Translations under genes and position numbers: made by a program
Shown here: positions 371-63,146 of the stretch, piece by piece
How positions within the stretch are numbered: position 1 is the first letter of the stretch
How the letters are laid out: each line of letters begins with the position of its first letter
Origin: Chiloscyllium plagiosum
Lineage: Eukaryota
Length of the DNA stretch: 63,146 nt
Direction of reading: 5' to 3'
Assembly (NCBI RefSeq): GCF_004010195.1
Contig: NC_057749.1
Location: 11,715,880-11,779,025 of the forward strand
The notes under the pieces: model-generated
The model's database searches: none
What the model saw: the letters and a program-made list of their open reading frames with translations, nothing else
Told to the model about the DNA's origin: nothing

Positions 371-2030
371 CCTCTCAACCTTCTTCTCTCCACCGAAAAC
401 AGCATCAGTTCCCTCAGCCTTTCTTCGTAAGACCTTCCTTCCATACCAGGCAACATCCTAGTAAATCTCATCTGAACCATTTCCTAAACTCCCATATCCT
501 TCCTATCATGCGGTGACCAGAACTGTACACAATATTCCAGGTGTGGCCTTACCAGTGTCTTGTACAGCTGAAGCATGATCTCATGGCTCTGGAACTCAAG
601 CCCCCTACCAACAAACATCAACACACCATATGCCCGCTTAACAACCCTATCAACCTGGGTGGCAAGGAATCTATGCACCTGGACACCGAGATCACTCTGT
701 TCAACTACACTGCCAAGAATTTTACCTTTAGCCCAGTACTCTGCATTCCTGTTATTTCTTCCGAAGTGAACTACTTCACGCTTTTCCGCATTAAACTCCA
801 TTTGCCATTTCTCTGCCTAGCTCTGCACCTTATCTAGTCCCTCTGTAACCCACAACATCCTTTGGCACTATCCACAACTCTGCCTACCTTAATGCCATCT
901 GCAAATTTATTAACCCATCCTTCTATGCCCACATCTATATAATTTCTAAAAATGACAAACAGCAGTGGCCCCAAAACAGATCCTTGTGGCACACCACTGG
1001 TAACTGAGCTCCAGGATGAACATTTCCCATCAACCACCACCCTCTGTCTTCTTTCAGCTAGCTAATTTCTGATCCAATTTGCTAAATCGTCTTCAATCCC
1101 AAATCTCTGTATTTTGTGCAATAACCTATCACGTGGAACCTTATCAAATGCCTTACTGAAGTCCATGTACACCACATCAACTGCTTTACCTTCATCCAGC
1201 TGTTTTGTCGCCTTCTCAAAGAACTCAATAAGGTAGTTAGGCACAACCTACCCTTCACAAAACCGCATTGACTATCGCTAATCAAATTATCCCTTTCCAG
1301 ATGATTATAAATCCTATCTCTTATAACCCTTTCTAACACCTTACCCACAACTGAAGTAAGTCTCACTGGCCTATAATTACCAGGGTTGTCTCGACTCTCC
1401 TTCTTAAACAAGGGATCATTTGCTATCCTCCAGTCTTCTGGCACTACTCCTGTCAACAATGATGACATAAAGATTGAAGCCAAAAGCTCTGCAATCTCCT
1501 CCCTGGCTTCCCAGAGAATCCGAGGATAAATCTAATCCAGCCCAGGGGTCTTAACTATTTTCAGATCTTCCAAAATTGCTAAAACCTCCTCATTGTCAAC
1601 TGCAATCCCATCTAATCTAGTAGCCTGTATTTCCGTATTCTCACTAACATTGCCCTTTTCCAACGCGAATACTGATGAAAAATATTCATTAAGTGCTTCC
1701 CCTTTGTCTTCAGATTCCACACACAACTTTCCACCACTATTAGCAAGTTTTGAGAAGATTTGTAGTTCACGTTGAGGTTCTAGATGTAGGTTTGCTCGCT
1801 GAGGTGGAAGGTTCATTTTCAGACGTTTTGTCACCATATTAGGTAACATCTTCAGTAGCCTCCGGACGCAAGGAAGCCCAAACATATAAATAGAAAGCAG
1901 GAAACACCAGCAGTACTTCATCTGGAGGATCACTGAAGATGTTACCTAGTATGGTGACAAAACATCTGAAAATGAACCTTTCAGCCCAGCAAGCAACCCT
2001 ACATCCATTTCCACCGCTATCTTTGATTGG
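371..2030 (-). mobile_element. CR1 LINE ORF2 (RT) fragment, frameshifted, interrupted by PLE insert 1741-2007
   Basis: Fragments PGNYRPVRLTSVVGK, VDVVYMDFSKAFDKVP, GVPQGSVLGPLLF, LYKTLVRPHLEYCVQFWSP. Confidence 0.9.
1741..2007. mobile_element. Inverted pLTR-only PLE derivative with 13-bp TSD
   Basis: TSD TTTCCACCACTAT (1728-1740) / TTTCCACCGCTAT (2008-2020); left arm matches 60241-60370; right arm is its reverse complement; degenerate hammerhead on each strand. Confidence 0.8.
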
Positions 2031-2197
2031 CTAGAGTAAGATTACAGCCATTCTTTTATCCTATGCATCCTAAATCATGCCTCTATGACTATGACTGAAC
2101 TTCATCCAGGCAGCACTGAATGTGTCAAACAGTACTAGCTGATCAGTCATGAAAAGCACATTGCTCAGGGATTCAACACTTATGTTTCATCATTCAG

Positions 2198-2291
2198 GGC
2201 AGCACACTGGATCACCACAGCTCAGAGTCTTCGCAGAATTCCAGTTCCAGTCTGTCTGAGAGGAATATCTTCACAGCCTTCAGTACACAAG
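2198..2291 (+). CDS. ENTREP2: FAM189A1/ENTREP2 internal coding exon (GSTLDHH...NIFTAFSTQ), 94 nt, apparent GC donor
   Basis: Acceptor cattcag; open frame resembling the recalled human segment ending PNTSAGFSTP; phase-1 end needed by the next exon is met only by AAG|GCATGT. Confidence 0.65.
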
Positions 2292-2734
2292 GCATGTAAG
2301 CTGAAGACTGTCTGATTCTTTGTTGGAAGTGGAATTTTTGTTTCCAAGTTGCAGTTTGGTTAGAAAGCTGCTCCAAAGTATGGAGATTATCCAGAACATT
2401 ATATGGAAAACTCAGCTGAGGGAGAATTTGTGAGGAGTTGGGAGAAATTGAGCACAACAAAAACTTGGAGAAAGACTGGACAAATGTAACACCTGCCATT
2501 AACATTATGTTTACACCTAAGATTAACAGATATGATGTCAGTAGAGTTTTTCAAGCAATCAATTTATATTGTGATATTTGAGAACTATAGTGTGTTTGGT
2601 CTTTGCCTTATGTATTGGAGATAATAGCACTCATTGGACTGATTTTGAGATGTTGTATTACCATTACCAGCTTACAAGCCTGCAGTATCCTGTTAGTTGA
2701 TCTCAGCCTGGTCTAATGTTAGAATAAAGAGTTA

Positions 2735-2925
2735 CAGATGCTGAAAATCTAAAACAGAAAAAGAAGTTGCTGGAGAAGAAGAATTCATGCTTTAAGTCCA
2801 GTGAACCTTCTCCAGACCCAAACCCTTCTGAAGAAGGGTCTATTGACTCAAAACATTAACTCTGATTTTGCTCTACAGATGCTGCCAGACTTGATGAGTT
2901 TCTTGCTTAATTTCTGTTTTTGGTC
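2735..2925. mobile_element. Short inverted non-autonomous element (family B) with degenerate hammerhead
   Basis: Arms CAGAAAAAGAAGTTGCTGG... versus ...TTTCTGTTTTTG; same family as 11454-11663 and 58562-58795. Confidence 0.6.
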
Positions 2926-3214
2926 CGCTGTTAACTTTGGTCTTTTCACTAGTCAAGGGCACTATCAGCCAGGGTTCCTGCCCCTGGAGATACTGCTTGT
3001 GTAGAGGATCAGGTGTGGCAGTAACCCCTATGTGGTTGAACAGTTACTCATCCTGGCAGCCTGCACTTTTACCACATGAATGGTAACATGTACAGGTTCC
3101 CGAGGTTGTCAGAGTGCTGATGCAAAGATCAGGAAAAGTGGATAATTCTTTCTTGATGTATTTCAATAGGGTTATAGATGTATAAATGTTTAAATATTCC
3201 TCTTCCCTTTTCAG

Positions 3215-3712
3215 TGCCTGTGGACAATGTCTTGCTGACATTGTGTGAATCTGCTGATATCCTAGAACAAAATGGCATGTCCATGGATTGCTGTTCAGTT
3301 GAAATTCAGGAATCTGTACACTCTGCAGCCAGTGTGATACCTGCCACAACCACAGACCATGGTTGCACCAGTTTGGAGGCTGATATTGGGGGGCAATGCA
3401 GGACTTATTCAGAAAGTTTCTGTGAGGAGGGAAACAATTCACCAGATCTGTCACTGGGCTCTGTAAGCTGGCAAGAGCACAGATTGTCAGAATGTTCTGC
3501 AGTGAGTTCCAACACAGTGGAGAAAATCCTCCAAACACCATCCCAGGCCTGCACTTTATCACTCAAACAAATTAAAATGTGCTGTGGAGTCTTCAGGCAG
3601 TCCTCATCTGCCACTGTGCCTGACAGAGTCAGGCGACCCGCTCAACAGAAGACTGGTGGGAACAGAATAATCCGATCTAGTAGTGATCCTGCCTCCTGCA
3701 CGTCTACAAAAG
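3215..3712 (+). CDS. ENTREP2: FAM189A1/ENTREP2 coding exon (VPVDNVLL...RIIRSSSDPASCTSTK)
   Basis: Acceptor tcttcccttttcag, donor AG|gtaaac, phase 1-1; RSSSDP motif matches recalled human RVSRSTSDPTLCTS. Confidence 0.85.
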
Positions 3713-9299: not shown

Positions 9300-10480
9300 T
9301 TTCTGTATTTCTTTGTAAACTGAGTTGAATCGTATGGATTAAAGACAAACTTTGTGTATGGTCCAGAAAATAAATGGTACTGTTACCGCCCCACATCTGT
9401 ATCTCTGTGCAGTTCCAAAGAATTGTTATTGGAGTCAAAACTTTAACTCTGTTTCTCTCTCTAAAGATACTGCTAGACCTCTTGAATTTTTCCAGCACCT
9501 TTGATTTTTATTTCAGTATTTGGGAGAGGCGCAGATAAAACAGATATAACCAGCCCAGTTCAGGTATTACCTACTTTTATGAAAAAGAATGAGTCTGGAT
9601 TTTCCTATTGTCTTCTCAAGTGATCCACAGCTGTTCACATTGTTTATTTCACATTCTGTATTCTTGATGCAATCTCATGCACTAGCCAAGAAGACATTGC
9701 AGGATCTGCAGCTGCACCAACTCATCTCCAAGTGGAGTAACATGATGGGAAAAAGACAAACTAACATTTAGCCTCTAGTGCTAGTACAGCATTTCAAGAT
9801 ACAAATACAAAGACTCTAATATTATCAACTCACTCACCAGCAACACAACACGCGCTGCACAAATACGGGCTATGCCGGTAACTGTTGTTCATCAATGATA
9901 ACAGAACTATCTGTTACATTCCAACTGGGCTAAATGCACAAAGATAACACTGGTAAGAAAGTTCAAAGCAGTGGGTGTCACTGCGAACTGCACTGTCAGA
10001 GATTTCTCTGTAAACTCGTTACTAATAGCAACAATGGCTGTCTTTATCTGACATTCAGCACTGGACATTCAATTATTTATTGCACACCAACATCATGTTA
10101 AAGTGACACTGTCACTAACTTGTGAAAGAACTTGGTTCAACTTATATAAAATGCAAAATATTTGTTTTTAGAGAAGAGAAAGAGCCTGTTTCTTCTCTCA
10201 ATGGAAATGGTGCGGAGTCTAGTGTGGAATGACAGAGCAGAAATACACGCATTCCCAGAGACACAGATATGCACACACACAGACATAAACCCTCTCTCGT
10301 ACACACACACTCACTCACACTCACACATAATCACAAGAAAGAAAACAGACATGCACACACCCATGCAATATGGGAGGCACTGACACTGTCTTCATTCCAC
10401 TGATCACCTCTTCCCAGCACAAAATGTTCAGCTGATCTGCTGGAAGTCCATTGAGCAGATGAACCCATTTCTTCACAAAG

Positions 10481-11453: not shown

Positions 11454-11663
11454 CACTCAAATAGAAACTGATGGAAAAACTCAACAGATCTGGCAGTATC
11501 TGTGAAGAGCAATCAGAGGCGTTGCTGAGAAAGGGTCACCGGATCTGAAATGTTAACTCTCATGTCTCTCCACAGATGCTGCTAGATCTGCTGAGCTTTT
11601 CCAGCAACTTCTGTTTGTGTTTCTGACTTATAGCATCGGCAGTTCTTTCAGTTTTTATTCAGC
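11454..11663. mobile_element. Inverted short element (family B) with 13-bp TSD and degenerate hammerhead
   Basis: TSD ATCTTTCTAAAGG (11441-11453) / ATCTTTCCAAAGG (11664-11676); CTGAGAAAGGGTCACCGGATCTGAAATGTTAA. Confidence 0.7.
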
Positions 11664-14202: not shown

Positions 14203-14675
14203 ACATGATTTGGAGATGCCGGTGTTGGACTGGGATGTACAAAGTTAAAAATCACACAACACCAGGTTATTTGTACTTGCAGAATTACATTTTATTTTGC
14301 TCAAAAACTACATGAATCCTTGCAAGATTCTGTAAATCCCTTTTTTAGATTAGAATTAGTCTGAACATTGGGGAACAGACAGCCTCACACAGGGCACCTC
14401 ACATCTTCAATACACTATCTAGGCCAACATGGCACCTATTGTTAAAGTTGACTTGAGAATCTAACTTTAAGAAAGTTCTGGGATTTACATATGAAAGAAC
14501 TGAAATCAACATGCCCCATTCTAAAAGATGAGACTTAACAAACAATCCAGGTCTTTTTCAATTTATAATTTCAGTTACATCACACTGTAAACTTCTGCTA
14601 TAAATTCTGTGTCCTACGATCTTATACTCCACAACCACTTGATGAAGGAGCAGCGCTCCAAAAGCTAGTGCTTCA
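14203..14675. mobile_element. Family C non-autonomous element with inverted terminus and degenerate hammerhead
   Basis: Shares sequence with 51733-52525; TTGATGAAGGAGCAGCGCTCCAAAAGCTAG near 14639-14668. Confidence 0.65.
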
Positions 14676-15986
14676 CATGGATGATTTTGGGATAGTGTAG
14701 GGGGATGAACTGAGAATAGTTCACAGGTCAGCGCAACATCGAGGGCCGAAGGGCCTGTTCTGCGCTGTATTGTTCTATGCTCTATGTTCTACATTATGAT
14801 GCAGGTGGTTAGAGACTCCGAATGCTCACTAGTTTCAGTTTATTCAGTTTTGTGTTTGCTGGCAGAAGTCAGATGCAGACTTCGAGCAGTTACGACATAC
14901 GTCTCTGGAAGCCAGTGACAGTTCAATGAACCAAGTGAGGGGTGAAGAAGACCTTCAAGCAGTATTGGCTTCATGCAGCTTGAGAAAAATTGGAGTTTAG
15001 AGTAATTCAATGATATCTCACTGAAGCTAACTGTTGGGTTAAATGCTGAAATTGCACCCGTAATTACACACTTGAGCACAGGCGCAGGAATTCTGGCAAG
15101 CTCTGCATTAGAAGTGATTGAACTATCAAGACTTGAGCAGTGGTTAAGGCAGTCTTAGTCATAGAGGTTCTGGGGGAGTTCCATGGCTTAATCTTCAAAA
15201 TTAAAAGTCAGAATCTCTTGAAAAGGAGACAGCCTTAGTGAGATTTAGAGACCCACAATGTCACTGAAGTCTGGGTGGGATTGGTCTTGGCTGTAACACC
15301 TATTTAAAGTGTGGTCTGAGGGGAATTGTAACATCTTTGGATGTTCAGCCACAACTTGCCTGTTAACAGAATATTAATCACATGTTATTCATGAATAATA
15401 TGATTGAGTTATATATATTCTGTCCAAACATGTGCATATTAAGTAGATTGGCCATGCTAAATTGCCCATAGTGTAGGGATGTATAGTCTAGGTTGATTAG
15501 CCATGGGAAATGCAATGTTAAGGGGAATAACTTCAGGGGGTGGGTCTGTGTGGGATGCTCTTCCGAGGGTCGATGTGGTCTCTTCTACACTGTAGGGACT
15601 TTATGATTCTCTGATTTAGAATCATTATCTTACTTGTTCAATACACTGATCAATTATACTTGAACAAAGGAAAAATAAGCAGTAGAGATTTTTGTTTTGA
15701 CATTTCAGTTCAACCCAGAATCTTGCCATTTATTTTCTTTCCCTTGATTCTTCTACACAATCTACTTAAACGATTATGCTATAACATGAGATTATAACAA
15801 AGATCTGGTTTGTCCAGTATTTCCAAAAATGGAATCGCAACTATTTGGCGGGCTAGTTTGGGACCATAACACTAAATGAAAGAAGAGCTTGTTAGTTAAG
15901 TCTGTAGGAGTTGTGAGAGAACATAAAAACTGATTGTGCCCAGTCATTGCCACTGAGGAGAAAGTCAGTGGTCATGTGCTACTCCG

Positions 15987-17460: not shown

Positions 17461-18429
17461 TTTAAAAATTCATTAATGACAATCGGAAGTATATCTGATG
17501 CCGAAGCCAATTCCAAGCATGTTACAATCCTCTTCTGGTTTTCTATTCCCAGAAGAAAGTGTATTCTCCATTCTCTCTAAGCTGACTTCGAGCAGGAAGT
17601 CAGTGTTCACTGAGAGCAACATCAATATTCTGCAAGCTCTTGAGAAACTGTGGCAGTCCTACATTCCAAGCTTCCATTGTTTTGATTGTCCACAAGGCTG
17701 CAGGTGCTCAAAGTGGAGAAATTCAAGTTTTTTTTGGGCCATGCATACTTTAAACATAAGGGTAAGAATGCCAACAGAATAGGGAATAGTTTTTGTTTGT
17801 GGCACCTTTTCTCACGGGGACCCTGAAAAGGATGGCTCCATGGTGAATGTTACTGTCAGGGAAATATTCTATCCATGACACAACCATCTGTTGCTTCTAG
17901 GGTTTTGCTTATTCCTAGTACGTGTCACCTTTTAATATGGGAAAGTTGGTGGGCATTCAACAATCTTGAAGGGTTGTAAATCTTTACCAATCACACGGTA
18001 ACGTGTGATTAATCAATCTCAATCACCTCCTGCCTGCATCCACCTATCGCCAACCCATCTACCTTTCCCCAGCCCCACACCCCCCATTTATTTCTCAGCC
18101 TCCTTCCCCTTCCCCAGTCCTGATGAAAACGTCAATTCTCCTGCTCCTCTGATGCTGCTTCACCTGCTGTGCTTTATCCACTTCTATACTTTATCAACTC
18201 TGACTTCACAGCATGAGCAGTCTTCACTATCTCCAAGCTCCTGAGCTAGGTGGATCTAAAGAGGTAGATCTCAGTGAAAGCCCATGCTTCAATTCCTTCA
18301 CAACAGAACATGTGGATAAATGAGAAATGACTACATATCAAAGGAGTATAAAATCTGCAGTGGGATTAACATTCACCAGTTGATATGAGGGAGTATTGCA
18401 CCATTACAGGGTCAGTGCTGAGGGAGTGG

Positions 18430-20898: not shown

Positions 20899-22141
20899 CA
20901 AACCAAAGGAGTAGCCATGGGCACCCGCATGGGCCCCAGCTATGCCTGCCTCTTCGTAGGATATGTGGAACAGTCCATCTTCCGCAGCTACACTGGCACC
21001 ACCCCCCACCTTTTCCTCCGCAACATCAATGACTGTATTGGCGCTGCCTCGTGCTCCCACGAGGAGGTTGAACAGTTCATCCACTTTACTAACACCTTCC
21101 ACCCCGACCTCAAATTTACCTGGACCGTCTTAGACTCCTCCCTCCCCTTCCTAGACCTCTCCATTTCTATCTCGGGCGACCGAATCAACACGGACATTTA
21201 CTATAAACCGACCAACTCCCACAGCTACTTAGACTACCTCCTCCCACCCTGCCCCCTGTAAAAACGCCATCCCATATTCCCAATTCCTTCGTCTCCGCCG
21301 CATTTGCTCCCAAGAGGACCAGTTCCAATACCGAACAACCCAGATGGTCTATTTCTTCAAAGACTGCAATTTCCCCCAGACATGGTCGATGATGCTCTCT
21401 ACCGCATCTCCTCCACTTCCCGCTCCTCCACCCTAGAGCCCCGCCTCTCCAATCGCCACCAGGACAGAACCCCACTAGCCTCACCTACCACCCCACCAAC
21501 CTCCATATACATCGTATCATCTGTCATCATTTCCGCCACCTCCAAACGGATCCCACCACCAGGGATATATTTCCCTCCCCTCCCCTNNNNNNNNNNNNNN
21601 NNNNNNNNNNNNNNNNNNNCAGAGAACACCTCTGGGACACCCAGACCAACCAACCCAACCACTCCGTGGCTCAACACTTCAACTCCCCCTCCCACTCCAC
21701 CAAGGACATGCAGGTCCTTGGACTCCTCCATCGCCAGACCATAGCAACATGACAGCTGGAGGAAGAGCGCCTCATCTTCCGCCTAGGAACCCTCCAACCA
21801 CAAGGGATGAATGCAGATTTCTCCAGCTTTCTCATTTCCCCTCCCCCTATCTTGTCTCAGTCCCAACCCTCGAACTCAGCACCACCTTCCTAACCTGCAA
21901 TCTTCTTCCTGACCTATCCGCCCCCACCCCCAATCCGGCCTACCACCCTCACCTTAACCTCCTTCCACCTATCGCATTTCCAACGCCCCTCCCCTAAGTC
22001 CCTCCTCCCTACCTTTTATCGTAGCTTGCTTGGCACACTTTCCTCATTCCTGAAGAAGTGCTCATGCCCGAAACGTCGATTCTCCTGCTCCTTTGATGCT
22101 GCCTGACCTGCTGCACTTTTCCAGCAACACATTTTCAGCTC
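20899..22141 (+). mobile_element. Penelope-like element (Neptune-type), 5'-truncated, 13-bp TSD, contains assembly gap
   Basis: QTKGVAMGTRMGPSYACLF..LPFLDLSI..DIYYKPT PLE RT; perfect TSD TGGTCCTATCTTC (20886-20898 / 22142-22154); hammerhead motif 22050-22077. Confidence 0.88.
21587..21619. other. Assembly gap (33 N)
   Basis: Run of n. Confidence 1.
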
Positions 22142-26882: not shown

Positions 26883-27025
26883 AATTAGAGTGGTGCTGGA
26901 AAAGCACAACAGGTCAGGCAGCATCCGAGGAGCCGGAAAATCAACGTTTCGGGCAGGAGCCCTTCCTGATGCACCACTCTAATCTTGACTCTAATCTCCA
27001 GCATCTGCAGTCCTCATTTCCATCT
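26883..27025. mobile_element. Short inverted PLE pLTR derivative with 12-bp TSD
   Basis: Perfect TSD AGATGGGTTACA (26871-26882 / 27026-27037); ATTAGAGTGGTGC versus GCACCACTCTAAT. Confidence 0.8.
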
Positions 27026-27790: not shown

Positions 27791-27883
27791 CCTGAAGAAG
27801 GGCTTATGCCCAAAACGTCGATTCTCCTGTTCCCTGGATGCTGCCTGACCTGCTGCGCTTTTCCAGCAACACATTTCCAGCTC
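27791..27883 (+). mobile_element. 93-bp PLE pLTR insert starting at the hammerhead core, 14-bp TSD
   Basis: TSD TGCATATGTGCATT (27777-27790) / TGCATAAGTGCATT (27884-27897); matches 22049-22141. Confidence 0.8.
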
Positions 27884-30614: not shown

Positions 30615-30830
30615 AGGAGAAAGTGAGGACTGCAGATGCTGGAGATCAGAGTCGAGAGTGTGTTGCTGGGAAAACACAGCAGGTCAGGCAGCATTTGAAG
30701 AGCAGGAGAATCGAGGTTTTGGGCATAAGCCCTTCACCAGGCATGATTCCTGAATGCCCAAAACTTCAATTCTCTGCTCCTCAGATGCTACCTGATCTCC
30801 TGTGCTTTCGCAGCAACACACACTGAAACT
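30615..30830. mobile_element. Inverted PLE pLTR derivative inside CR1 3' end
   Basis: TGTGTTGCTGGGAAAACACAGC versus TGTGCTTTCGCAGCAACACA arms. Confidence 0.75.
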
Positions 30831-33497: not shown

Positions 33498-34008
33498 TAG
33501 GTGTAGTCTAGGTAGCTGTGGGAGTCGGTTGGTTTATAGTAAATGTCCGAGTTGATTCGGTCGCCCGTGATAGAAATGGAGAGGTCTAGAAAGGGGAGGG
33601 AGGAGTCTGAGACGGTCCGAGCGCCTCATCTTCCGCCTAGGAACCCTCCAACCACAAGGGATGAACTCAGACTTCTCCAGTTTCCGCATTTCCCGTCCCC
33701 CCACCTTGTCTCAGTCCCAACTCTCGAACTCAGCACCACCATCCTAACCTGCAATCTTCTTCCTGACCTCTCCGTCCCCACCCCCACTCCGGCCTATCAC
33801 CCTCACCTTATCACCCTCACCTTAACCTCCTTCCACCTATCGCATTTCCAACGCCCCTCCCCCAAGTCCCTCCTCCCTACCTTTTATCTTAGCCTGCTTG
33901 GCACACTTTCCTCATTCCTGAAGAAGGGCTCATGCCCGAAACGTTGATTCTACTGCTCCTTGGATGCTGCCTGACCTGCTGCGCTTTTCCAGCAACACAT
34001 TTTCAGCT
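33498..34008. mobile_element. Neptune-type PLE fragment with 5' inversion; hammerhead 33918-33945
   Basis: 33498-33618 is the reverse complement of ~21122-21240; 33619-34008 matches 21766-22140. Confidence 0.85.
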
Positions 34009-35069
34009 TAAACCTAAGAGAGTTTGGACCTAAAGTGTTCTCCAACTGACACTTCAGTCACTTGCCCGACTTCATTTCTAAACTGTTGCACCCGCCCAAG
34101 TAGGGTTCTCTACATATTGGTTTAGGAAACGTTCTTGGACAAATCGGACCAATTCCACCCGGTTGGGCCTTTTAAACTCTGGGTGGTCCAGTCAATTCCG
34201 GGGAAAATTAAAAACCAATACTACACTATTATTCTACTGGTAACTGCAATCTCTCTACACATCTGCTCCTCTAGTACCAAATGGCTATTAGTCCCAACAA
34301 AGTGACCATCCCCTTCTTGTTTCTAGTTCTAACCATATAGCCTCATTTGAATACCCTTTAAGAATATCCTCTCGAAGCACTATTGTTATGTCCTCCCTTA
34401 TCTAAAGGCCAACTGCCCCATCTCACTTACTTGTCCCTCTGTCGCGCCTGTAGCTTTTGTATCCTGGCAACATCCAAGGAGCAGCGAAATCGACATTTCG
34501 GGCAAAAGCCCTTCGTCAGGAATAAAAACCTAGTTTTTACCTCATTTTTACCTCATCTGCCTTACCAATCAGGCCTCGTGTGTTGAAATAAATGCACTTT
34601 AAACCTTATCACTCCCTTCACTGTGGATATATTAATGAAGGGCTAATTGGGTGTAAATTATGGGTCTCTCTTGTAGTGTAAAAGTAGTGTACCTACCGCA
34701 GGTTCAAGTCCACCGGTTCCAGAGGTATGTAATAACATCTCTGAATGGGATGGTTAGAAAAACAGGTTAAATTAAGAAAAAGGATGTGAATTGGTTGTAT
34801 AAGTAGGTGGAGCTAGTAATCAGCTGCTTTTGTGGCACAGTGGTAGTGGCCCTATATCTGGGCCAGAAGGGCTGATGTCAAGTTCTACCTGCACCAGAGA
34901 TGTGTCATTATGTTCAGGTTGATTAAAATATCTAAAAGTTGGACTTGAATTTTTGTGTAAACAGAGTTACTTTTTTTGGAGTATAACAAAAGCTACACCT
35001 ACAGAATGCCAGAGTTTGAACTGTAGATAGTTGAGATGAAGATGAAACAAGCAGAGTTAAGCAAGATAC

Positions 35070-45765: not shown

Positions 45766-46453
45766 TTCTGTGCTGCAATCCTTGATAAAAAAAGGTCTTA
45801 GCCGATAAAAGCTGCAGATCTGGGATAGGTCTCCATTAGACCATAAGACACAGGACTAGGATTAGGCCATTTGGCCACTGAGTCTGTTCCACCACTCAAT
45901 CATGTCTCTGCGCAGTGCAGTCTAACTCCATTTCTGTCTCTTCCTCCTATTTAGTCAGATGCCCTCTTGGTGATATACCTTGGGTGCTCCTGCCTTTGAA
46001 TCGAAAAAGATGCCCCATTCTTTGAGAGGGGAACATTGGTCTTGGAAATGTGGTTGCCACGTTTTTGGAAGACGGAAGTTAAGGAATGGGAGGGTCAAAA
46101 GCAAAGGCCAATTTCATTGTGAACAAACTTCAGGAGGTAAACATCATCCTGTTATTAATCCTGATTAAATACATTTCCTCTTTAACAGGCTCCACTCAGC
46201 CTTGCATGGAGATACAGTATTATCACAAAATGGAACAGAATTTTAAGCTTTATCCAGATTACTGGTTATAACTACCAGAGACATTTAGAGATGTGCAGAC
46301 ACCAGGCTGTGACAGCAATTATACCAGATTGGAAAAACAGTGAGTCAGAAAATTGCGAAACTGAATTTGGAGAGGCTAATCTTGCCACCATTCTGGATCA
46401 GTGGTGCTGGAAGAGCACAGCAATTCAGGCAGCATCCGAGGACAGGCAAAATC

Positions 46454-46481
46454 GACGTTTCGGGCAAAAGCCCTTCATCAG
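46454..46481 (-). ncRNA. Minimal hammerhead ribozyme core (sense to APBA2 direction)
   Basis: CTGATGA-A-GGGC-TTTT-GCCC-GAAAC-GTC. Confidence 0.75.
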
Positions 46482-46732
46482 GAATAAAGGCAGAGAGCCT
46501 GAAGCGTGGAGAGATAAGCTAGAGGAGGGTGGGAGAGAAGAGGAAAACTTCTTCAGGGCGGGAGTCCTGATTGTGAAAGTAAGCTTGGAGGCGGAGGCGA
46601 CGGAAGAATTGTTCGATGTCACGGCGTGTATATCTCCTTCCCCACTGACCTATTGTACTCTATGCTACTCTCTCCCCACCCCCCCCCTCCTCTAGCTTAT
46701 CTCTCCACGCTTCAGGCTCTCTGCCTTTATTC

Positions 46733-46760
46733 CTGATGAAGGGCTTTTGCCCGAAACGTC
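46733..46760 (+). ncRNA. Minimal hammerhead ribozyme core
   Basis: CTGATGA-A-GGGC-TTTT-GCCC-GAAAC-GTC. Confidence 0.75.
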
Positions 46761-47169
46761 GATTTTGCCTGTCCTCGGATGCTGCCTGAATTGCTGTGCT
46801 CTTCCAGCACCACTGATCCAGAATCTGGTTTCCAGCATCTGCAGTCATTGTTTTTACCTCGTTAATCTTGCCACCAGCTTCATCTCTCTTAGGTTTCCAA
46901 TTTCTGCTCCAAGCTTCTTTGCCATTTTCTTAATGCTATTGTCTTCAGCAATCCTCTGAACTGTTTTCTTAATGATCCCTATTATTCTGCTTTAAATGGT
47001 GAGCTTCTCAACATCTCCACATTTCTCTTGTATGTACAAGCTACTGGTAGTAAACACAGGCATGGCGTTATCTTTCACTATGCCCGAGTCAGTTTTTTTG
47101 CATCTACTTTTTAATCTTAGTGTTGTTCTATACGCGAAGCGCTAACCCTTCAACTGGGTGATTCATTAA

Positions 47170-49350: not shown

Positions 49351-50294
49351 TCCTTTCTTTTTACTTATTCATAAATTGTGCCCATCAAATGCAGCACAAG
49401 CCCTTGCCTAGTTTTTCTTAAGAAGGTGGTGGTGAGTTATCTTCTTGAACTGTTGCAATCCATTTGGTATAGGGACACCCACAGAGCAAATCAGATGTGA
49501 GTCACTCGGAGGGGAACTTGCAGGATATGGTATCCGATGCTCTTGTCCTTCTAAATAGAAATGGCTGTGGGTTTAGAAGATTCTGTCCAAGGAGGTTTGG
49601 TGAACTTTTGCAGAATATCTTACAGATGGTACACACTACTGCTACTGAGTGCCACTGGTGGAGTTGAATGAATTAATGATTTTCTTTCTCACGTGTATTT
49701 TGCAGTGAGAAATACAATAAAATACAGTAAAATACAGTAAATTTCATTCATTTCCACAATATGGCACCATTTTGAAACTTTAAGAGCAAGAGAAAAATTA
49801 GAAGGTTTAGCTTAAAGTGAACTACATTCGAGTTTTGGGCCAGTTTAGAACCACCACCACCTCACTAGACCCAAATAATGTAAAATTCACCAACATTTAT
49901 AGACATGGTGCCTGTCAAATGGTTTGATTTGTTCTGGATGGTATCAAGCAGCTTGAGCATGATTGATGCTACACTCATCCAAACAAATGGAGAATATTCA
50001 AACATACTACTGACTTGCATAGGCTTTGGGGAGTCAGGCAGTACTCTCTGCTGAAAGTGGATGCTTGCTTTTTGAAATTCATACACAAGGACCCAAATCC
50101 TTTTCTGCTGCAGTTTATACTATTTAAATAATATTCAGCTCCTTAATTTTTCAAAGTGCATAACCTCTCATTTCCCACATTATATTCTATCTGCCAAATT
50201 GTTGCCCACTCACTTGCCCACACCCCTTTGCAGATTCTTTGTGTTGTCCTCACCATTAGCCTTCTTACCTATTTTACTGTATTCTATTCACAGA

Positions 50295-51170
50295 AATAGA
50301 AAACACACACCGGATCATCAACGCCACACTCACAGGAATCAGATTCACTAGAGAGGAAGAAAAGGACAACCAACTCCCATTCCTAGCCATGACGGTGCAG
50401 AGAACACCGAACGGAGAATTCACCACAAAGGTATACAGGAAAGCCACACACACAGACCAAGTCCTGAACTATGAAAGCAACCACCCCAACACACACAAAA
50501 GAAGTTGCATCAAGACACTGTTCAAAAGGGCCACAACACACTACAGTACACCAGAACTGCAAAAAGAGGAAGAAGAATACCTCTACAATGTATTCGCCAA
50601 AAACGGATACCCCCGCAATTTCATCAACAGATGCCTAAGGGAAAGACAACGGAACAAGGACATGCCACAACCTAAAGGACTAGCCACATTACCATACTTC
50701 AAGAACATTTCTGAACTGACAGCCAGATTACTGCGACCACTAGGACTCATAACAGCACACAAATGTCAGTTCCAGCTGTCCGTTGCAGTGGTCAGTATAT
50801 TGGGTCCAGATCGATGTGCTTATTGATTGGATCTGAAGTCACTACTATTATAGGACAAGCCAAACAGAGAACAGCCAGGGAATTCCTAGAGGCATGGCAG
50901 TCATCCACAGATTATATCAACAAACACATCGACCTGGACCCAATATACCGGCCACTGAAGCGGACAGCAGGAACTGACAACCGGAAGCGGCAGAGACAAA
51001 CCACTATAAATGCCGGAGGAAACATTACAGAAGCGCTTCACAGGAGGCTCCCAAGCACTGAGGATGTCACCTAGACAGGGGATGAAACGTCTGCAACACA
51101 AATTCCCAGCTCGGCAAACAGAACCACAACAATGAGCACCCAAGCTACAAATCTTCTCACAAACTTTGAA
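50295..51170 (+). mobile_element. Penelope-like element (Poseidon-type): RT C-terminal part, inversion, pLTR with hammerhead 51058-51091
   Basis: KVYRKATHTDQVLNYESNHP..NGYPRNFI..TLPY; 50764-50835 is an inverted copy of ~50908-50980. Confidence 0.88.
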
Positions 51171-51732: not shown

Positions 51733-52525
51733 GTTAAAAATCACACAACACCAGGTTTTAGTCCAACAGGTTTTTTTTTGGAAGTACTGGCTTTCATCAG
51801 ACAGCTGTGAAACAGGATCTAAAACACAGAGTTTATAGCAACAGATTACAGGGTCATGCAACTGAAATATACATTGAACAAACCTAAATTGCTATTGCAT
51901 CTTTCATCTTTTAGAATGGTTTGCAGGTTTCGGTTCATTAATATGTAAATCCCAGAACCTGCAGCCCATTCTAAAAAATGAAAGATGCAAGAGCAATCTA
52001 GATTAGATTAGATTACTTACAGTGTGCAAACAGGCCCTGCGGCCTAACAAGTCCATACCGACCCGCCGAAGCACAACTGACCCATACCCCTACATTTACC
52101 CCTTTACCTAACACTATGGGCAATTTAGCATGGCCAATTCACCTAACCTGCACATTTTTGGACTGTGGGAGGAAACCGGAGCACCCGGAGGAAACCCACG
52201 CAGACACGGGGAGAATGTGCAAACTCCACACAGTCAGTCGCCTGAATCAGGAATTGAACCCGGGTCTCTGGCGCTGTGAGGCAGCAGTGCTAACCATTGT
52301 GCCACCGTGCCGCCCTAGATATATTGAACAATCTAGGTTTGTTCAATATATCATTTCATTTGCATGACACTGTAATCTTTTGCCATAAATTCTGTGTCTT
52401 AAATTCCTGTTTTACAGCTACCTGATGAAAGCCAGTACTTCCAAAAAAACCTGTTGGATTATAATCTGGTGTTGTGTGATTTTTAACTTTGTCCACTTCA
52501 GTCCAACACTGACTCCTCCACATCA
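51733..52525. mobile_element. Family C long palindromic element (arms ~200 bp) with nested HE1 SINE
   Basis: AAGTTAAAAATCACACAACACCAG versus CTGGTGTTGTGTGATTTTTAACTT; flanks TATCTAAATAAA / TATTTAAATAAA. Confidence 0.78.
51999..52315 (-). mobile_element. HE1-like V-SINE, young, full length
   Basis: Intact head GGGCGGCACGGTGGCACAATGG, many CpGs retained, (TCTAA)n tail. Confidence 0.92.
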
Positions 52526-53369: not shown

Positions 53370-54494
53370 CAGGAATGAGGCAAGTGGCCCAAGGGGGCTA
53401 AGAGATGTATGGGAGGGGGTGGGGCTGGGGGGAGCAAGATAGCTGGGAATGCAATGGGTAGTTGAAGGTGGGGGTGAAGATGATAGGTCGGAGAGGAGGG
53501 TGAAGCAGATATGTGGGCATATAGTACAGTTCAAGAGGACGGTGCTGAGTTGGAATGTTCAATCTGGAATAAGGTTGGGGGGGGGGGGGAAATGAGGAAA
53601 CTGGTGAAATCCTCATTGATCCCGTGTGGCTGGAGGGTCCCAAGGTGGAAAATGAAGCATTCTTGCTCCAGGCATTGGTGGTTAGGGTTTGCTGTGGAGG
53701 AGGCCCAGGACTTGTCCTTGATGGAGTGGGTAGAAGTGCAATCCTTCCCTGCCACCGTCAGAAGTGTAAAAATCTACACCCACACCACCCCCCTTGCCCC
53801 CCTCCATGGCCCCAAAGGATCCTTCCACGTCCAACACATGTACTTCCACACACATCATCTACTATGTCCGTTGCTCTCAATGTGGTCTCCTCTACATTGG
53901 GGAGACAGGACGCCAACTCGCAGAACTTCAGAGAACATCTCTGGGACACACGCACCAAACAACCCCACCACCTCATGGCCAAACACTTTAACTCCCATCC
54001 CACTCCGCCAAGAATGTGCAAGTCTTGGGCCTTCTCCACCGCCAAACCCTAAACACCCAACACCTGGAGGAAGAACACCTCATCTTCCACCTTGGGACCC
54101 TCCAAACACACCGGATCAGCATGGATTTCACAAGTTTCCGCCTTTCCCCTCCCCTCACCTTAACCCAGATCCAACCTTCCAACTCGGCACTGCCCTCTTG
54201 AACTGCCCTACCTGTCCATCTTCCTTCCCACCTATCTACTCTACCCTCCTCTCCAACCCATCACCTTCACCTGCACCTTCATCTACCCATTCCCAGATAC
54301 CTTCCCCCATCCCAGCCACACCCCCCTCCCATTTATCTTTCAGCCCCCTTGGGCCACAAGCCTCATTCCTGATGAAGGGCCTACACTTGAAACATCGATT
54401 CTCCTGCTCCTCGGATGCTGCCTGACCGGCTGTGCTTTTCCAGCATGACACTCTTCAACTTTTGATCTCCAGCATCTGCAGTCCTCACTTTCTC
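53370..54494. mobile_element. Neptune-type PLE with GIY-YIG remnant and inverted 5' copy, ~15-bp TSD
   Basis: HIIYYVRCSQCGLLYIGETGR; 53370-53730 is an inverted copy of ~53990-54373; TSD CTGCTTTCCCTCTAT / CTGCATTCTCTCTAT. Confidence 0.85.
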
Positions 54495-54869
54495 CTGCAT
54501 TCTCTCTATGACAAGTATATCCTCTTTTAGGCAGCAAGATCAAAACTGCACACAATACACCAGTTGTGATCGCAGCAAGATCTTGTATAACTGCAGTACT
54601 TCTGAACTCAAATTCTCTTGCAATGAAAACCAACATACCATTTGCCTTACTCATTGCTTAACATACCTGCCTGTCTAGTTTCATTAGAGACAAAAAAACT
54701 GCGGATGCTGGAATCCAAGGTAGACAAGCAGGAAGCTGAAAGAACACAGCAAGCCAGGCAGCATCAGAAGGTGGAGAATTTGACGTTTCAGCTGTAACTC
54801 TTCTTCAGGACTATCTATTTCCATTGACTGGTTTACAAAAACACCCAGACCTCTTTAAATAAAATAAGG

Positions 54870-58465: not shown

Positions 58466-58561
58466 ACTTCTCACCATTTAAATAATATTAGATTAGATTA
58501 GATTAGATTAGATATTCTTTCTTTCTATTTTTCACACCGAAGTATATAACTTCATATTTTG

Positions 58562-58795
58562 CAACAAAAACAGAAATTGCTGAAAAAAATCTCAGCCAAT
58601 CTGGTAGCATCTGTGGAGAGAAAGCAAAGTTAACATTTCGGGTCCAGTGACTCTTCTTCAGAATAAAGTGTTCTGAAGAAGGATCACCGGACTCAAAACG
58701 TTAACTCTGCTTTCTCTCAACAGATGCTACCAGACCTGCAGAGTTTTCCCAGCAATTCCTATATATGTTTCTGATTTCTATCATCTGCAGTTCTT
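58562..58795. mobile_element. Family B palindromic element with two back-to-back hammerhead motifs
   Basis: TTAACATTTCGGGTCCAGTGACTCTTCTTCAGAA-TAAAGTG-TTCTGAAGAAGGATCACCGGACTCAAAACGTTAA. Confidence 0.78.
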
Positions 58796-59415
58796 CCAGT
58801 TTCACACATAGCAACTTTGTGTTGCATCTGCCACATCTTTCCCTGTAGAAGAAATTTTGTGGCCCTGGAAGCCATTTTCTTTGTGCCTTATCTTAGCTAC
58901 CCTAAAAATCATTACTAAGAGAAATTTGTAACTAACTGCGTACAAGATTCTGTGTCAAAGTCTGACCTGACCCAGTAGGACTGAGATTAAGTGTATCCAT
59001 AAGAAAGAAAGCATTATTGAAAATTAACAGTTGGTTATCTCTGTTCTGTGCTCCTGCAACAATGTACAAGATAATTAATTGTCTGCAATTAATTGTCAGC
59101 CTGCAGTCAGTAAAATTCATATAAGCGCCTGTTAACTTGTGGCACCTAGCATAAGAGAGGGCTTAGTTAAGAATTTGGGTCCATTCCTGAGTAACCCCTA
59201 TTTTTCCTTTACTTATGGTGTTGCCTTTTCTTGATTTAAGGTTTCACTCCTGATAACCCCAACCATGCTTTCTGCAAAACTCATGAAATACTTTATCTGT
59301 GGAATGTTGTTAAATTAGCAATGTAATACACAGTATTGACACAAGCCTAAACAATAGACCTTTTAATAAACATTTTTGGCAAGACCTCCACTTTACCTAA
59401 TGCAAGTGTAAGTAG

Positions 59416-59427: not shown

Positions 59428-59699
59428 CTATTTTGTCATACTGTGTCTAGTTAAGCAAATTATCAACTGGGTCACATATAAACCCCTGCTGAACTGTAAT
59501 ATTTCGAAGCAGTTAGCAATCTGTTTTACGGACTGGCTGCTTCCCATGATATATCATGAAATAAAGTTGGTCAATACTGAAGATCTGAAATTTTCTTCGA
59601 CATTCCCACTTACTCAACTTGTCTAAATCACCTTGAAACCTCCTTATGTTCTCCTCACAACTTCATCTGACACAACCATGTGCTGTCAGCAAACTTTGA

Positions 59700-60220: not shown

Positions 60221-60240
60221 CACTTAAACATTTGTATATA

Positions 60241-61870
60241 TTAGCAAGTTTTGAGAAGATATGTGGCTCAGGTTGAGGTTCTGGATGTAGGTTTGCTCGC
60301 TGAGCTGGAAGGTTCATTTTCAGACGTTTCATCACCATACTAGGTAAGATCTTCAGTGAGCCTCCGGATGAAGCATTGCCGATGATTCCTGCTTTCTATT
60401 TATATGTTTGGGTTTCTTTAGGTTGGTGATGTCATTTCCTGCGTGGATGTCATTTCCTATGGTGATGTCATTTCCAATTCTTTTTCTCAGGAGGTAGTAA
60501 ATGGGGTCCAAGTCAACGTGTCTGTTGATAGAGTTCCAATTGGAATGTCATGCTTTTAGGAATTCTCATGCATGTCTTTGTTTGGCTTGTCCTAGGATGG
60601 ATGTGTTGTCCAGCCGAAGTTGTGTCCCTCCTTATCTGTATGTAAGGATACTAGTGAAAGAGAGTCATGTCGTTTTGTGGCTAGTTGATGTTCATGTATC
60701 CTGGTGGCTAGTTTTCTGCCTGTTTGTCCAATGTAGTGTTTGCTACAGTCCTTGCATGGTATTTTGTAAATGACATTAGTTTTGTTTGTTGTCTGTATAG
60801 GATCTTTCAAGTTCATTCGCTGCTGTTTTAGTGTGTTGGTGGGTTTGTGGGCTAGCATGATGTCAAGGGGTCTGAGTAGTCTGGCAGTCATTTCCAAGAT
60901 GTCTTTGATGTAGGGGAGAATGGCTAGGGTTTCTGGATGTGTTTTGTCTGCTTATTTGGGTTTGTTTCTGAGAAATCCGCCGACTTGTGTTCATTGGGTA
61001 CCCATTCTTTTTGAATACACTGTACAGATGATTTTCCTCTGCTCTGTGTACTTCCTCTGTGCTGCAGTGCGTGGTGGCTTGTTGAAGTAAAGTTCTGATG
61101 CAGTATCATTTGTGGATGTTGGTATGATGGCTTCTGTAGTTCAATATTTGGTCTGTATGTGTTGTTTTCCTGAGTATGCTGGTTTGAAGTTCCCCATTGG
61201 CTGTTCGGTCTACTGTGACATCTAGGAATGGCAGTTTGTTGTTGTTTTCTTCCTCTTTAGTGAATTTTATGCCAGTAAGGCTATTATTGATGGTCTTGAA
61301 GGTTTCCTCTAATTTGTTTCATTTAGTGATGACAAAGGTGTCATCCATGTAGCGGATCCAGAGTTTGGGTTGGATGGTTGGCAAGGCAGTTTGTTCAAGT
61401 CTCTGCATTATTGTCTCTGCTAAGAACCCTGGTATCAGAGATCCCACGGGTGTTCTGTTGGTTTGACTGTAGGTTTTGTTGTTGAAGGTGTAGTGGGTGG
61501 TAAGGCATAAGTCCACAAGCTTGACGATACTGTCCTTGCTGATGAAGTTGGTGGTGATTGATGTATGTGTCTTTGGGTCTTCTAATAGTGTAGTCAGTGT
61601 TTACTTGGCCTGATTGATGTGAGTAGGGCTATACATCAAAGGAAACCATTATTTCATCCTCTTCTATCTTAGTGTCTTTGATGGTCTTCAGGAATTCTTG
61701 AGTGGAGTGGATGGAATGGCTTGAGTCTTGTACTAAGTGTTTTATTCTTTGGTGTAGCTCATGGCCAATCTGTAAGTTGATGTTCCAGGTGACGAGACTA
61801 TGAGTCTGAGGGGGACTCCTGGTTTGTGAATTTTGGGTAATCCATAGAAGCGTGGTGTGTTGGATCCGTC
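60241..61870 (-). mobile_element. Penelope-like element (Poseidon-type), RT + GIY-YIG + pLTR, degenerate; hammerhead 60323-60356
   Basis: EIMVSFDV, WIRYMDDTFVI, VIYKIPCKDCSKHYIGQTGRKLATRIHEH. Confidence 0.92.
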
Positions 61871-62189
61871 TGGAAAATTGAGTTGAAGGCACAATCAAAT
61901 CAGCAATGATCGAATGAATAGCAGAGCAGGCTCGAGGGGCTGAATGACCTAGACCTGCTGTCAATTTGTATGCTTATATTCTTGACCTTTTGTATTGTAT
62001 CTCATCTATATTGCCTCTACCTCCAATGTCCTAAACTGAGAGATGTCTTTCCATGACCTGTCCAATGTTTCTCAACAAATCATCAGCAAAATCAGATAAA
62101 TCAGGCTTCCCATTTTTATCAATCAGTACCTCCAAATCTGCATTGCATGAGGAATAATGGGATGTTTAAGGGTGTGACTGGTGCAGTAT

Positions 62190-63146
62190 AATTAAAATAT
62201 CATCACCATCACTAAAGTAGTAGTATTAGACAAAATGGCGAAAGTGAGGACTGCAGATGCTGGAGATCAGAGTCTAGATTAGAGTGATGCTGGAAAAGCA
62301 CAGCAGGTCATGCAGCATCCAAGGAGCAGGAAAATCAGTATTAGACAAAATAATGGGTCTACAGGCAGATAAATCCCTGGGCCTGGTCATGTGGCTTGCA
62401 TCCTAGGATCCTAAAAGAGATAGCTAGAGAGATAGTGGAGGCATTGGTTGTAATTCTCCAAAATTCCTTTGATTCTGGAGAAGTACCAGAGGATTGAAAA
62501 ACTGCTCGTGTCACACCTCTATTAAAAAAAGGAGGGAGGCAAAAAGGAGTTAACTATATGCCGATTAGCCTAACATCTACTGTTGGAAAAGTATTGAAAT
62601 CAATATTTAAGAAAGTAACAGCAGAACAGTTAAAAAAATCTTTATTTCACCTATATGTGGAACTGCAGGAGGTGGGGAAGATACTAAATGAGTATTTTGC
62701 ACCAGCGTTTGCTGTGGAGAAGGATATAGAAGCTAGGGAACTTTAAGAAGGAAGTATGTGTCAGATATAGACAGGATAGATCGCATTAATCCTTAGAAGA
62801 GTAGAAAGGCAGTAGGAATATACTTAAGGGAGAAATCGGGAGGGCAAAAAGGGGACATGAGATAGCTTTTGCAAATGGGATTAAGGAGAATCCAAAGGGT
62901 TTTTACAAATACATTAAGGACAAAGAGTAACTAGGGAGAGAATAGGGCCCCTCAAAGATCAGCAAGGCAGCCTTTGTGTGGAGCCGCAGGAGATGGGGAA
63001 TATACTAAACAAGTATTTTGCATCAGTATTTACTGTGGAAAATGACATGGAAGATATAGATTGTAGGGAAATAGATGGTGACATCTTGAAAAATGTCCAA
63101 ATTACAGAGGAGGAAGTGCTGGATGTCTTTAAACGCATAAAAGTGG
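62190..63146 (+). mobile_element. CR1 ORF2 fragments (several, rearranged)
   Basis: PISLTSTVGKVL, ILNEYFA, KENPKGFYKYIK segments. Confidence 0.8.
62237..62336 (-). mobile_element. 100-bp PLE pLTR tip with perfect 15-bp TSD
   Basis: TSD AGTATTAGACAAAAT (62222-62236 / 62337-62351). Confidence 0.8.

What the first reader, a model, noticed from the sequence alone, without database searches (positions are those of the whole stretch)
1728..62351. Window-wide population of ORF-less, hammerhead-associated PLE derivatives from at least four families with 12-15 bp TSDs
Seen: short inserts at 1741, 2735, 11454, 14203, 26883, 27791, 30615, 46391, 51733, 54686, 58562 and 62237. Most are head-to-head inverted terminal sequence, and readable TSDs are 12-15 bp, like the 13-bp TSD of the coding PLE at 20899. 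Two families link to coding PLEs in this window (Neptune-type at 20899/53370; Poseidon-type at 60241). Families B and C have no coding partner here. Inference: sharks host an abundant retrozyme- or MITE-like class of PLE-mobilised elements that repeat libraries may mislabel as SINEs or DNA MITEs.
Basis: partly seen in the sequence, partly recalled or inferred. Interest (0 to 1): 0.75.

Follow-up and report, generated by a model that had tools for sequence, protein, structure and literature searches.

The report
Stub-sized Penelope retroelement insertions, shark
The short hairpin-shaped inserts are real, but they are best explained as very short insertion products of ordinary Penelope-like jumping genes, with the mirror-image half built anew at each landing; the one unexplained point is that many copies begin just in front of their small hammerhead ribozyme motif.

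Summary
All 12 listed inserts exist and are 3'-terminal pieces of Penelope-like elements (PLEs). Eight have a significant 12-15 bp TSD, nine are head-to-head, and eight keep a minimal hammerhead core within two substitutions. The retrozyme/MITE inference is not supported. No insert has tandem same-strand hammerheads, every junction differs, sizes grade into ORF-bearing copies, 46391 carries 25 codons of the ORF, and both arms of 51733 lack stem II and GAAA. All 8 complete head-to-head inserts have one tailed and one untailed end, the published PLE insertion pattern. Family B is a sister of the Neptune-type family A; C has no coding link here. Whole-genome contigs laid on a B copy showed no recurrent junction among the rows printed. 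One feature is not explained by random truncation: 13 of 22 short arms start at -13..+5 of the hammerhead core, and loose ends suggest that only about 10-20% of B arms share sequence further upstream. This fits an RNA start at an initiator-like site 4 nt before the ribozyme, with run-off cDNAs being integrated (inferred, untested). Opposite-strand hammerhead pairs from truncated PLEs were described in 2014. Verdict: new shark members of a known kind.

The parts
1741..2007 (.). Poseidon-type (PosII) head-to-head insert; minus arm +114 to about -13 (tailed), plus arm -63 to +74 (positions relative to hammerhead C3)
   Evidence: 13-bp TSD 1728-1740/2008-2020, 1 mismatch; empty site in a LINE paralogue; 88-92% to 60241
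2722..2920 (.). Family B head-to-head insert; tailed minus arm with internal deletion, plus arm -2 to +92
   Evidence: 13-bp TSD with 3 mismatches, not above chance
11454..11663 (.). Family B head-to-head insert; minus arm stops at +32, plus arm -2 to +138 (tailed)
   Evidence: 13-bp TSD, 1 mismatch
14203..14677 (.). Family C insert; short tailed minus arm, long plus arm ending at about +41 against a LINE 3' end; hammerhead with AGCU helix III at 14639-14667. That 14270-14475 belongs to the element is inferred.
   Evidence: no readable TSD
20899..22141 (+). 5'-truncated coding Neptune-type PLE (RT to EN remnant, 3' UTR, exact core 22050-22077, no tail); N gap 21587-21619
   Evidence: perfect 13-bp TSD; empty site; tblastn of P0002 E 1e-71
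26883..27025 (.). Family A head-to-head stub; minus arm stops at +5, plus arm is mainly the tail; no complete core
   Evidence: perfect 12-bp TSD
27791..27883 (+). Family A single arm, -1 (or -5 with microhomology) to +91; 92% to the 20899 end
   Evidence: 14-bp TSD, 1 mismatch
30615..30823 (.). Family A head-to-head insert; both arms start at about -4/-5; plus arm has a 10-nt deletion in the core
   Evidence: 15-bp TSD, 2 mismatches; empty site
33499..34008 (.). Family A copy with an inverted ORF piece (33503-33618) joined to a direct arm -285 to +90; exact core 33918-33945; no TSD
46391..46862 (.). Young family A head-to-head insert (arms 97% alike, two exact cores) with an ORF piece at about 46555-46629 (minus strand) in its centre
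   Evidence: perfect 14-bp TSD
51733..52525 (.). Family C head-to-head insert split by a SINE-like repeat (about 51990-52315); both arms lack the same 16 nt (stem II and GAAA)
   Evidence: 12-bp TSD, 1 mismatch; deletion read from the sequences
53370..54494 (.). Coding Neptune-type copy: inverted arm -370 to +2, direct arm -634 to +125 with a degenerate Cys linker and GIY-YIG remnant
   Evidence: 15-bp TSD, 2 mismatches
54686..54810 (-). Single tailed arm of a divergent A-like family, -2 to +122; exact core 54782-54808
   Evidence: 15-bp TSD with 3 mismatches, not above chance
58563..58803 (.). Family B head-to-head insert; both arms start at -2/-3, 11-nt private spacer, right arm tailed
   Evidence: TSD not readable
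60241..61880 (-). 5'-truncated coding Poseidon-type PLE (RT, GIY-YIG, 3' UTR with TATAAA at -48, exact core, tail); 5' limit approximate
62237..62336 (-). Family A single tailed arm that begins at +28, the first base after the predicted hammerhead cut (1-nt ambiguity)
   Evidence: perfect 15-bp TSD
40..368 (+). Second Poseidon-type family (PosI): EN end, exact core 258-291, tail; inverted piece at 1-38 cut by the window edge
50260..51168 (+). PosI coding copy with an internal inversion (50764-50835), exact core 51058-51091, tail
9410..9515 (+).
   Evidence: profile hit E 3e-22, but it was in the profile; blastn to 58562 E 2e-7; no TSD
18022..18232 (+). Decayed family A arm with tail and a deletion in the core, not listed
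   Evidence: no TSD
34466..34530 (-). Family A fragment, about -7 to +53, core with one substitution, not listed
   Evidence: no TSD

Best explanation
The inserts are dead-end, heavily 5'-truncated integration products of autonomous endonuclease-bearing PLEs (Neptune and Poseidon clades). The GIY-YIG domain nicks both target strands 12-15 nt apart (inferred from the TSDs). Each nicked end primes reverse transcription at one of the element's two internal start sites, 36-41 nt apart, which gives one tailed and one untailed end. The two cDNAs stop early and are joined at their 5' limits with private filler, small deletions or template jumps, so the palindrome is made at each landing. If only one end is extended, a single arm results. 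[quoted passage not shown] Shown: anatomy, TSDs, tail pattern, junction variety, size continuum, 5' clustering. Taken from the anole element PAc: two-strand nicking and internal two-site initiation. Inferred: the transcription start and run-off step. Ribozyme cleavage is not needed for most copies.
For: One tailed and one untailed end in 8 of 8 complete head-to-head inserts (0.5^8 = 0.004 by hand). Poseidon-type ends at +110 to +115 and +74 with an ATG at stem II, as in PAc (PMC11167929). No two inserts share a junction. In genome contigs the 15 best of 325 joint rows include none inside the B element with more than 2 contigs per run, and fill letters differ. ORF pieces in 46391 and 33503. Both arms of 51733 carry a broken core. 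13 of 22 arms ending between -110 and +75 fall in -13..+5 (binomial p 3e-8; 7 of 15 inserts counted conservatively, p 4e-4). Loose ends at the B centre: 991 and 537 contigs in X1, 1115 and 618 in X13, agreement 0.38-0.41; simulation fits about 10-20% sharing upstream sequence, and ten unrelated subfamilies all extending would give 0.46. Initiator-like match with A at -4 in 6 of 7 long A arms, TATAAA at -48 in both PosII arms.
Against: No coding partner of B or C was seen, so 'autonomous parent' is inferred for them; no genome was available. A sharp 5' boundary is also what a short SINE-like template would give. The cluster window was chosen after seeing the data, arm ends were read by eye, and short arms are the easiest to see. 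The A at -4 is also the first base of helix I, so its conservation need not mean a promoter. All four C arms and 4 of 5 Poseidon arms do not stop at the boundary. The simulation assumes how 'agreement' is computed and 85% identity. Only 24 of 1,359 loose-end rows and 15 of 325 joint rows were shown. Head-to-head copies with a shared centre would align through and not show as joints.
Confidence: 0.68

Rival explanations
1. SINE-like monomers: short RNAs of 95-140 nt (hammerhead to tail) made from ORF-less source copies that kept the upstream promoter are mobilised in trans by PLE protein; palindromes still form at landing.
For: 6 of 7 B arms in the window start at -1..-5; most B arms in contigs share nothing upstream; no coding B or C copy in 63 kb; trans-mobilisation by pLTRs is published (PMC3846280) and non-autonomous PLEs exist in Chlamydomonas (PMC8557442).
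Against: A minority of B arms share upstream letters to about -20 in three runs; A shows the same boundary yet grades into coding copies; new copies would lose the upstream promoter; 46391 was copied from RNA holding ORF sequence.
Confidence: 0.19
2. MITE-like class: the palindrome itself is the mobile unit and is re-copied with a fixed centre.
For: 9 of 12 are inverted and TSD-flanked; several contigs align across the 58562 centre (5 of the 8 X1 pieces shown).
Against: All nine junctions differ; outer ends differ by the tail; TSD length varies from 12 to 15; no recurrent joint among rows shown.
Confidence: 0.05
3. Long inverted insertions were trimmed afterwards by deletion of unstable palindrome centres, and the boundary is an ascertainment effect.
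For: Internal deletions in 2722, 26883, 30615 and 18022; upstream UTRs differ between subfamilies, so alignments stop there anyway.
Against: Single arms with TSD-defined ends also start at -1 and -2 (27791; 54686 with a weak TSD); a 97%-identical palindrome with 153-nt arms survives at 46391.
Confidence: 0.05
4. Non-LTR retrozymes: hammerhead cleavage releases unit-length RNA circles that are reverse-transcribed and inserted.
For: 62237 starts at the predicted cut (+28) and one arm of 11454 two bases from it; retrozymes are reported from one chondrichthyan genome (bioRxiv 10.64898/2026.07.22.740005).
Against: No tandem same-strand cores; cores are the minimal type; in 1741, 46391 and 58562 nearly all core bases pair with the other arm (33 of 34, 28 of 28, 26 of 30; less in 30615, 2722 and 11454); only 2 of 31 arms start near the cut; copies are not permuted around it.
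Confidence: 0.03

Closest known systems
Insertion units of endonuclease-bearing PLEs: 5' truncation, adjacent inverted copy, 30-40 bp tail at one end (Craig et al. 2021, PMC8557442; Arkhipova et al. 2013, PMC3846280)
   Same: Head-to-head arms, tail on one end only, variable TSD, copy-specific junctions, solo terminal repeats.
   Different: Here most units are 90-270 bp with no ORF between the arms; TSDs are 12-15 bp against the 8-10 bp cases quoted for Adineta; 5' ends pile up at the hammerhead.
Minimal hammerheads (min-HHR) of metazoan PLEs (Cervera and De la Pena 2014, PMC4209133)
   Same: Core with an extra base between A9 and stem II, palindromic 15.2-16.2 positions, short helix I; the paper reports pairs 100-700 bp apart on opposite strands and thousands of single motifs attributed to truncated PLEs.
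   Different: No shark in the parts read; TSDs, tails and 5' boundaries not tabulated there. It notes that the Drosophila virilis intron ends at the 5' end of helix I, another possible cause of a boundary.
Poseidon_Ac (PAc) of Anolis (Frangieh et al. 2024, PMC11167929)
   Same: ORF begins at stem II; RT starts at two internal sites about 111-118 nt into the ORF and a tail length earlier; both strands nicked and extended; hammerhead cleavage dispensable in vitro.
   Different: In vitro work on one element; it does not address palindromic stubs or the transcription start.
Non-LTR retrozymes (Cervera and De la Pena 2020, PMC7229834; Li et al. 2026, 10.64898/2026.07.22.740005)
   Same: PLE-related, type I hammerhead, no full ORF, long TSDs when present.
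   Different: Defined by head-to-tail tandem units and circular RNA; these inserts are single or head-to-head with minimal cores.

Membership tests
EN+ PLE insertion (Neptune/Poseidon) | Terminal sequence continuous with a PLE RT and GIY-YIG ORF | tested here: met
   A and both Poseidon-type families. Pfam did not hit the short fragments; the homologues P0001 and P0002 carry PF00078. GIY-YIG and clade calls rest on motifs read by eye and recalled, plus the linker criterion in PMC8557442.
EN+ PLE insertion (Neptune/Poseidon) | Same link to an ORF for families B and C | tested here: inconclusive
   B cross-hits A and a minority shares upstream letters; C has no cross-hit; no genome; metagenome scans gave 0 and 1 chance locus.
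EN+ PLE insertion (Neptune/Poseidon) | Minimal type I hammerhead in the terminal repeat | tested here: met
   8 exact cores vs 0-1 in shuffles; stems differ between families but pair. Absent or broken in 26883, 51733, 62237.
EN+ PLE insertion (Neptune/Poseidon) | Inverted 5'-truncated copy and 30-40 bp tail at one end | tested here: met
   8 of 8 complete head-to-head inserts; tail 36-41 nt where measured.
EN+ PLE insertion (Neptune/Poseidon) | Target-site duplication of variable length | tested here: met
   10 significant TSDs among 20 inserts tested; 3 empty sites.
Non-LTR retrozyme | At least two tandem units with same-strand hammerheads | tested here: not met
   None of 16 tandem-repeat rows covers a core; paired arms are always on opposite strands.
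Non-LTR retrozyme | Units bounded by the cleavage site | tested here: not met
   2 of 31 arms start at or near the cut.
Non-LTR retrozyme | Abundant linear and circular unit-length RNA; self-cleavage | not testable with these tools
   Only a poly(A) single-cell run was available as raw reads.
MITE (DNA transposon derivative) | Uniform size, identical terminal inverted repeats, fixed short TSD, transposase partner (definition recalled) | tested here: not met
   Sizes 93-793 bp, ends differ by the tail, TSD 12-15 bp, partners are retroelements.
Self-propagating non-autonomous PLE family | Many dispersed copies with one fixed internal structure | tested here: inconclusive
   Not met for the palindromes; the single arm of B has a near-fixed 5' end, so a monomer family is not excluded.
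Already catalogued in Dfam/Repbase | Entry with this structure and label | not testable with these tools
   No repeat library is offered; Rfam gave no hammerhead hit, only sub-threshold hairpin models.

The most novel reading that the evidence does not exclude
Shark Neptune-type PLEs have a dominant template whose 5' end lies about 4 nt before the hammerhead core. Because RT starts internally 95-140 nt downstream, run-off cDNAs akin to strong-stop DNA are integrated singly or as pairs from a protein dimer, one from each start site. The very many stubs would then be a genomic map of the PLE RNA start and of two-ended priming in vivo, and family B may have become a SINE-like monomer fed by such short RNAs.
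Probability: 0.4. Interest if true: 0.55.

Novelty: new member of a known kind. Interest (0 to 1): 0.3.

Why it matters
How PLEs make their inverted and tailed insertions is still open; the papers read say so (PMC8557442, PMC11167929). A genome with very many short TSD-bounded products is a natural data set for it: tail asymmetry, TSD length and 5' boundary can be counted at scale. PLE pieces cover about 9.2 kb of this window (14.6%, 23 intervals set by hand), so their annotation affects shark repeat budgets, and the hairpins draw false miRNA-model hits. It is not a new class of mobile element.

Tried and rejected
No whole genome was held, so genome-wide tabulation and extension of B and C were not possible. 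Rfam: 14 matches, none a hammerhead, all below gathering score. Pfam on 7 fragments: only PDZ in a host exon passed. Metagenome pattern scans: C motif 0 loci; B motif 1 locus, a chance match in bacterial-looking coding DNA. Look-ups of earlier findings by the B and C sequences gave nothing. RNA: no RNA holder listed. In raw run X21, 633 of 12,955,460 reads (about 2% of the run) were laid, only 4 at 95% identity or more, on both strands, with no shared start or end; a poly(A) single-cell library cannot show short or circular RNA, so this is no evidence either way. High depth at 58380-58463 was first taken for another B piece; it is a LINE 3' end with no PLE profile hit, so the 26,235 contigs laid in X1 include LINE contigs and are no B copy number. 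The MAFFT alignment did not place the 16-nt C deletion correctly; it was read by eye. A splice acceptor as cause of the boundary was considered: B has CAG at -5..-3, but the long A1, A2 and A4 arms have no AG there. PMC12602865 held nothing relevant.
Full report
Setting. The window is vertebrate intronic DNA rich in LINE fragments, with host exons on both strands (PDZ hit). No genome was held. Positions below are relative to C3 of the hammerhead core, in the ribozyme's sense.

Observation. All 12 inserts are there. A boundary-anchored TSD search over 20 inserts, against 400 random flank pairs, gave significant 12-15 bp duplications for 8 of the 12 listed and for coding copies 20899 and 53370; 2735 and 54686 have decayed candidates not above chance, and 14203 and 58562 have none readable. 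Three of 17 rebuilt empty sites match another LINE copy with a single TSD. Nine of 12 are head-to-head. Eight exact minimal hammerhead cores occur against 0-1 per shuffle in 15 shuffles. The cores fit the min-HHR of PMC4209133 (parts 1-2 of 4 read): an extra base before stem II, a palindromic ACGU (A, B, Poseidon) or AGCU (C), and a 3-4 bp helix I.

Families. A (several subfamilies plus 54686) is continuous with coding copies 20899, 33503 and 53370; RT-bearing proteins P0001 and P0002 match 20899 at E 8e-62 and 1e-71, and 53370 keeps a degenerate Cys linker before the GIY-YIG remnant, the Neptune mark named in PMC8557442 (passages). 1741 matches the Poseidon-type copy at 60241 (88-92%). B is a sister of A: the profiles cross-hit, best E 2e-15. 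C cross-hits nothing and has no coding link; its PLE status rests on core type, tail asymmetry and TSD.

Anatomy points to integration products. First, 3' ends fall in two classes 36-41 nt apart, and 8 of 8 complete head-to-head inserts have one of each. PMC8557442 describes the tail at one end and the adjacent inverted copy as typical. PMC11167929 (main text and start of methods read) shows that the tail lies between two internal RT start sites and that both target strands are nicked and extended. The Poseidon-type ends here (+110 to +115 and +74, ATG at stem II) match that layout. Second, no two inserts share a junction, and sizes grade from 93 bp to 1.6 kb. Third, 46391 carries about 25 codons from the N-terminal part of the ORF between its arms (aa 109 to about 134 of P0002), so its template held coding sequence. 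Fourth, both arms of 51733-52525 lack the same 16 nt of the core (read by eye), so a dead ribozyme was still copied, as PAc mutants are in vitro. Fifth, no tandem same-strand cores exist, and in the three best-kept palindromes the core is buried in the inter-arm helix (14 of 21, 9 of 30 and 3 of 30 bases in the other three).

Genome-scale look at B. One lay of four runs on 58380-58990 placed 26,235 of 16.5 million X1 contigs and 30,305 of 20.3 million X13 contigs (a related organism); these counts include a LINE end at 58380-58463. B is plainly abundant in both, but depth is no copy number. Of 325 joint rows 15 were shown; those within the element rest on 0-2 contigs per run with differing fill. 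The largest loose-end groups sit at the centre: 991 and 537 contigs in X1, 1115 and 618 in X13, 110 and 61 in X20, agreement 0.37-0.41. The clip position is forced by this copy's private spacer; the information is in the low agreement. The consensus begins with TCAG just before the TT that precedes the core, keeps a weak shared signal to about -20, then fades. A simulation gives 0.35-0.43 if 10-20% share an upstream sequence and 30-60% share only four letters, and 0.46 if all arms extended into ten unrelated subfamilies. So most B arms that reach the core stop within a few bases of it, and a minority extend, which suggests a longer parent. This estimate is rough.

The boundary. Of 31 arms (ends read by eye), 22 end between -110 and +75, and 13 of these in -13..+5 (p 3e-8; 3e-7 after a tenfold scan correction; 7 of 15 inserts counted conservatively, p 4e-4). 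Only 62237 (+28, the predicted cut) and one arm of 11454 (+32) lie near the cleavage site. An initiator-like YYANWYY has its A at -4 in 6 of 7 long A arms, and TATAAA lies at -48 in both PosII arms and about -40 in 2 of 3 C arms. PMC8557442 and PMC3846280 (passages) place the promoter and start site in the pLTR. I infer run-off from the 5'-proximal RT start to the RNA's 5' end. Against it: -4 is also the start of helix I; C arms and 4 of 5 Poseidon arms do not stop there; no RNA data test it.

What is known. PMC4209133 already reports opposite-strand min-HHR pairs 100-700 bp apart and thousands of single motifs from truncated PLEs in fish, coelacanth and frog. Retrozymes are defined by tandem units (PMC7229834, passages; bioRxiv 10.64898/2026.07.22.740005, parts 1-3 of 5, which includes one chondrichthyan). 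Short non-autonomous Penelope elements are mentioned for butterflies (PMC6685494, passages), and PMC8969392 (passages) lists inverted pLTRs and tails as ordinary. Eight searches listed no paper devoted to shark PLE stubs or to a 5' boundary at the hammerhead; shark genome papers were seen as listings only, supplements were not read, and most subscription papers are outside the library. A 2017 paper on dimeric PLE hammerheads is recalled, not seen.

Earlier scan notes from the same genome reach the same reading, including the boundary. I had noted the clustering and stated the truncation reading; those notes are unchecked and are not counted as support.

Verdict. Real and abundant, but ordinary PLE insertion products with about 0.68 confidence; SINE-like monomers about 0.19; MITE-like or retrozyme readings 0.05 or less each. 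Interest 0.3, resting on the boundary and the strict tail asymmetry as a handle on PLE mechanism.

Noticed in passing
window:51733-52525: Both arms of this family C insert lack the same 16 nt (stem II and GAAA): a ribozyme-dead variant that was still retrotransposed.
   Followed up: partly
window:62237-62336: Single arm with a perfect 15-bp TSD that starts at the first base after the predicted hammerhead cut; a possible rare copy of a cleaved RNA (one case, 1-nt ambiguity).
   Followed up: partly
window:53370-53730: The inverted arm of the coding copy begins at +2 of the hammerhead rather than at either normal 3' end, so it holds the part upstream of the boundary where short arms stop.
   Followed up: no
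window:33499-34008: Inverted arm is an ORF-internal piece, about 530 nt away from where the direct arm starts in the 20899 copy; no TSD; twin-priming-like.
   Followed up: partly
window:26883-27025, 30615-30823, 18022-18232, 2722-2920: Small internal deletions in or just after the hammerhead core recur in four copies; RT slips at the structure or later hairpin deletion.
   Followed up: no
window:23361-24585 and 38893-39888 (minus); 3178-3750 and 6990-7559 (plus): Host exons: a PDZ-domain gene on the minus strand (PF00595; APBA/Mint-like from recall) converging on a plus-strand gene (FAM189/ENTREP-like from recall).
   Followed up: no
window:5454-5638, 12860-13354, 37048-37343; 22637-22846, 25197-25497, 40212-40435: Dispersed minisatellite-like repeat families with units of about 30-33 nt, unrelated to the PLE ends.
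   Followed up: no
window:48717-48765: Further decayed family B-like fragment (E 3e-6).
   Followed up: no
window:21587-21619: 33-base N gap inside the coding copy at 20899, where the RT-EN linker would lie.
   Followed up: no
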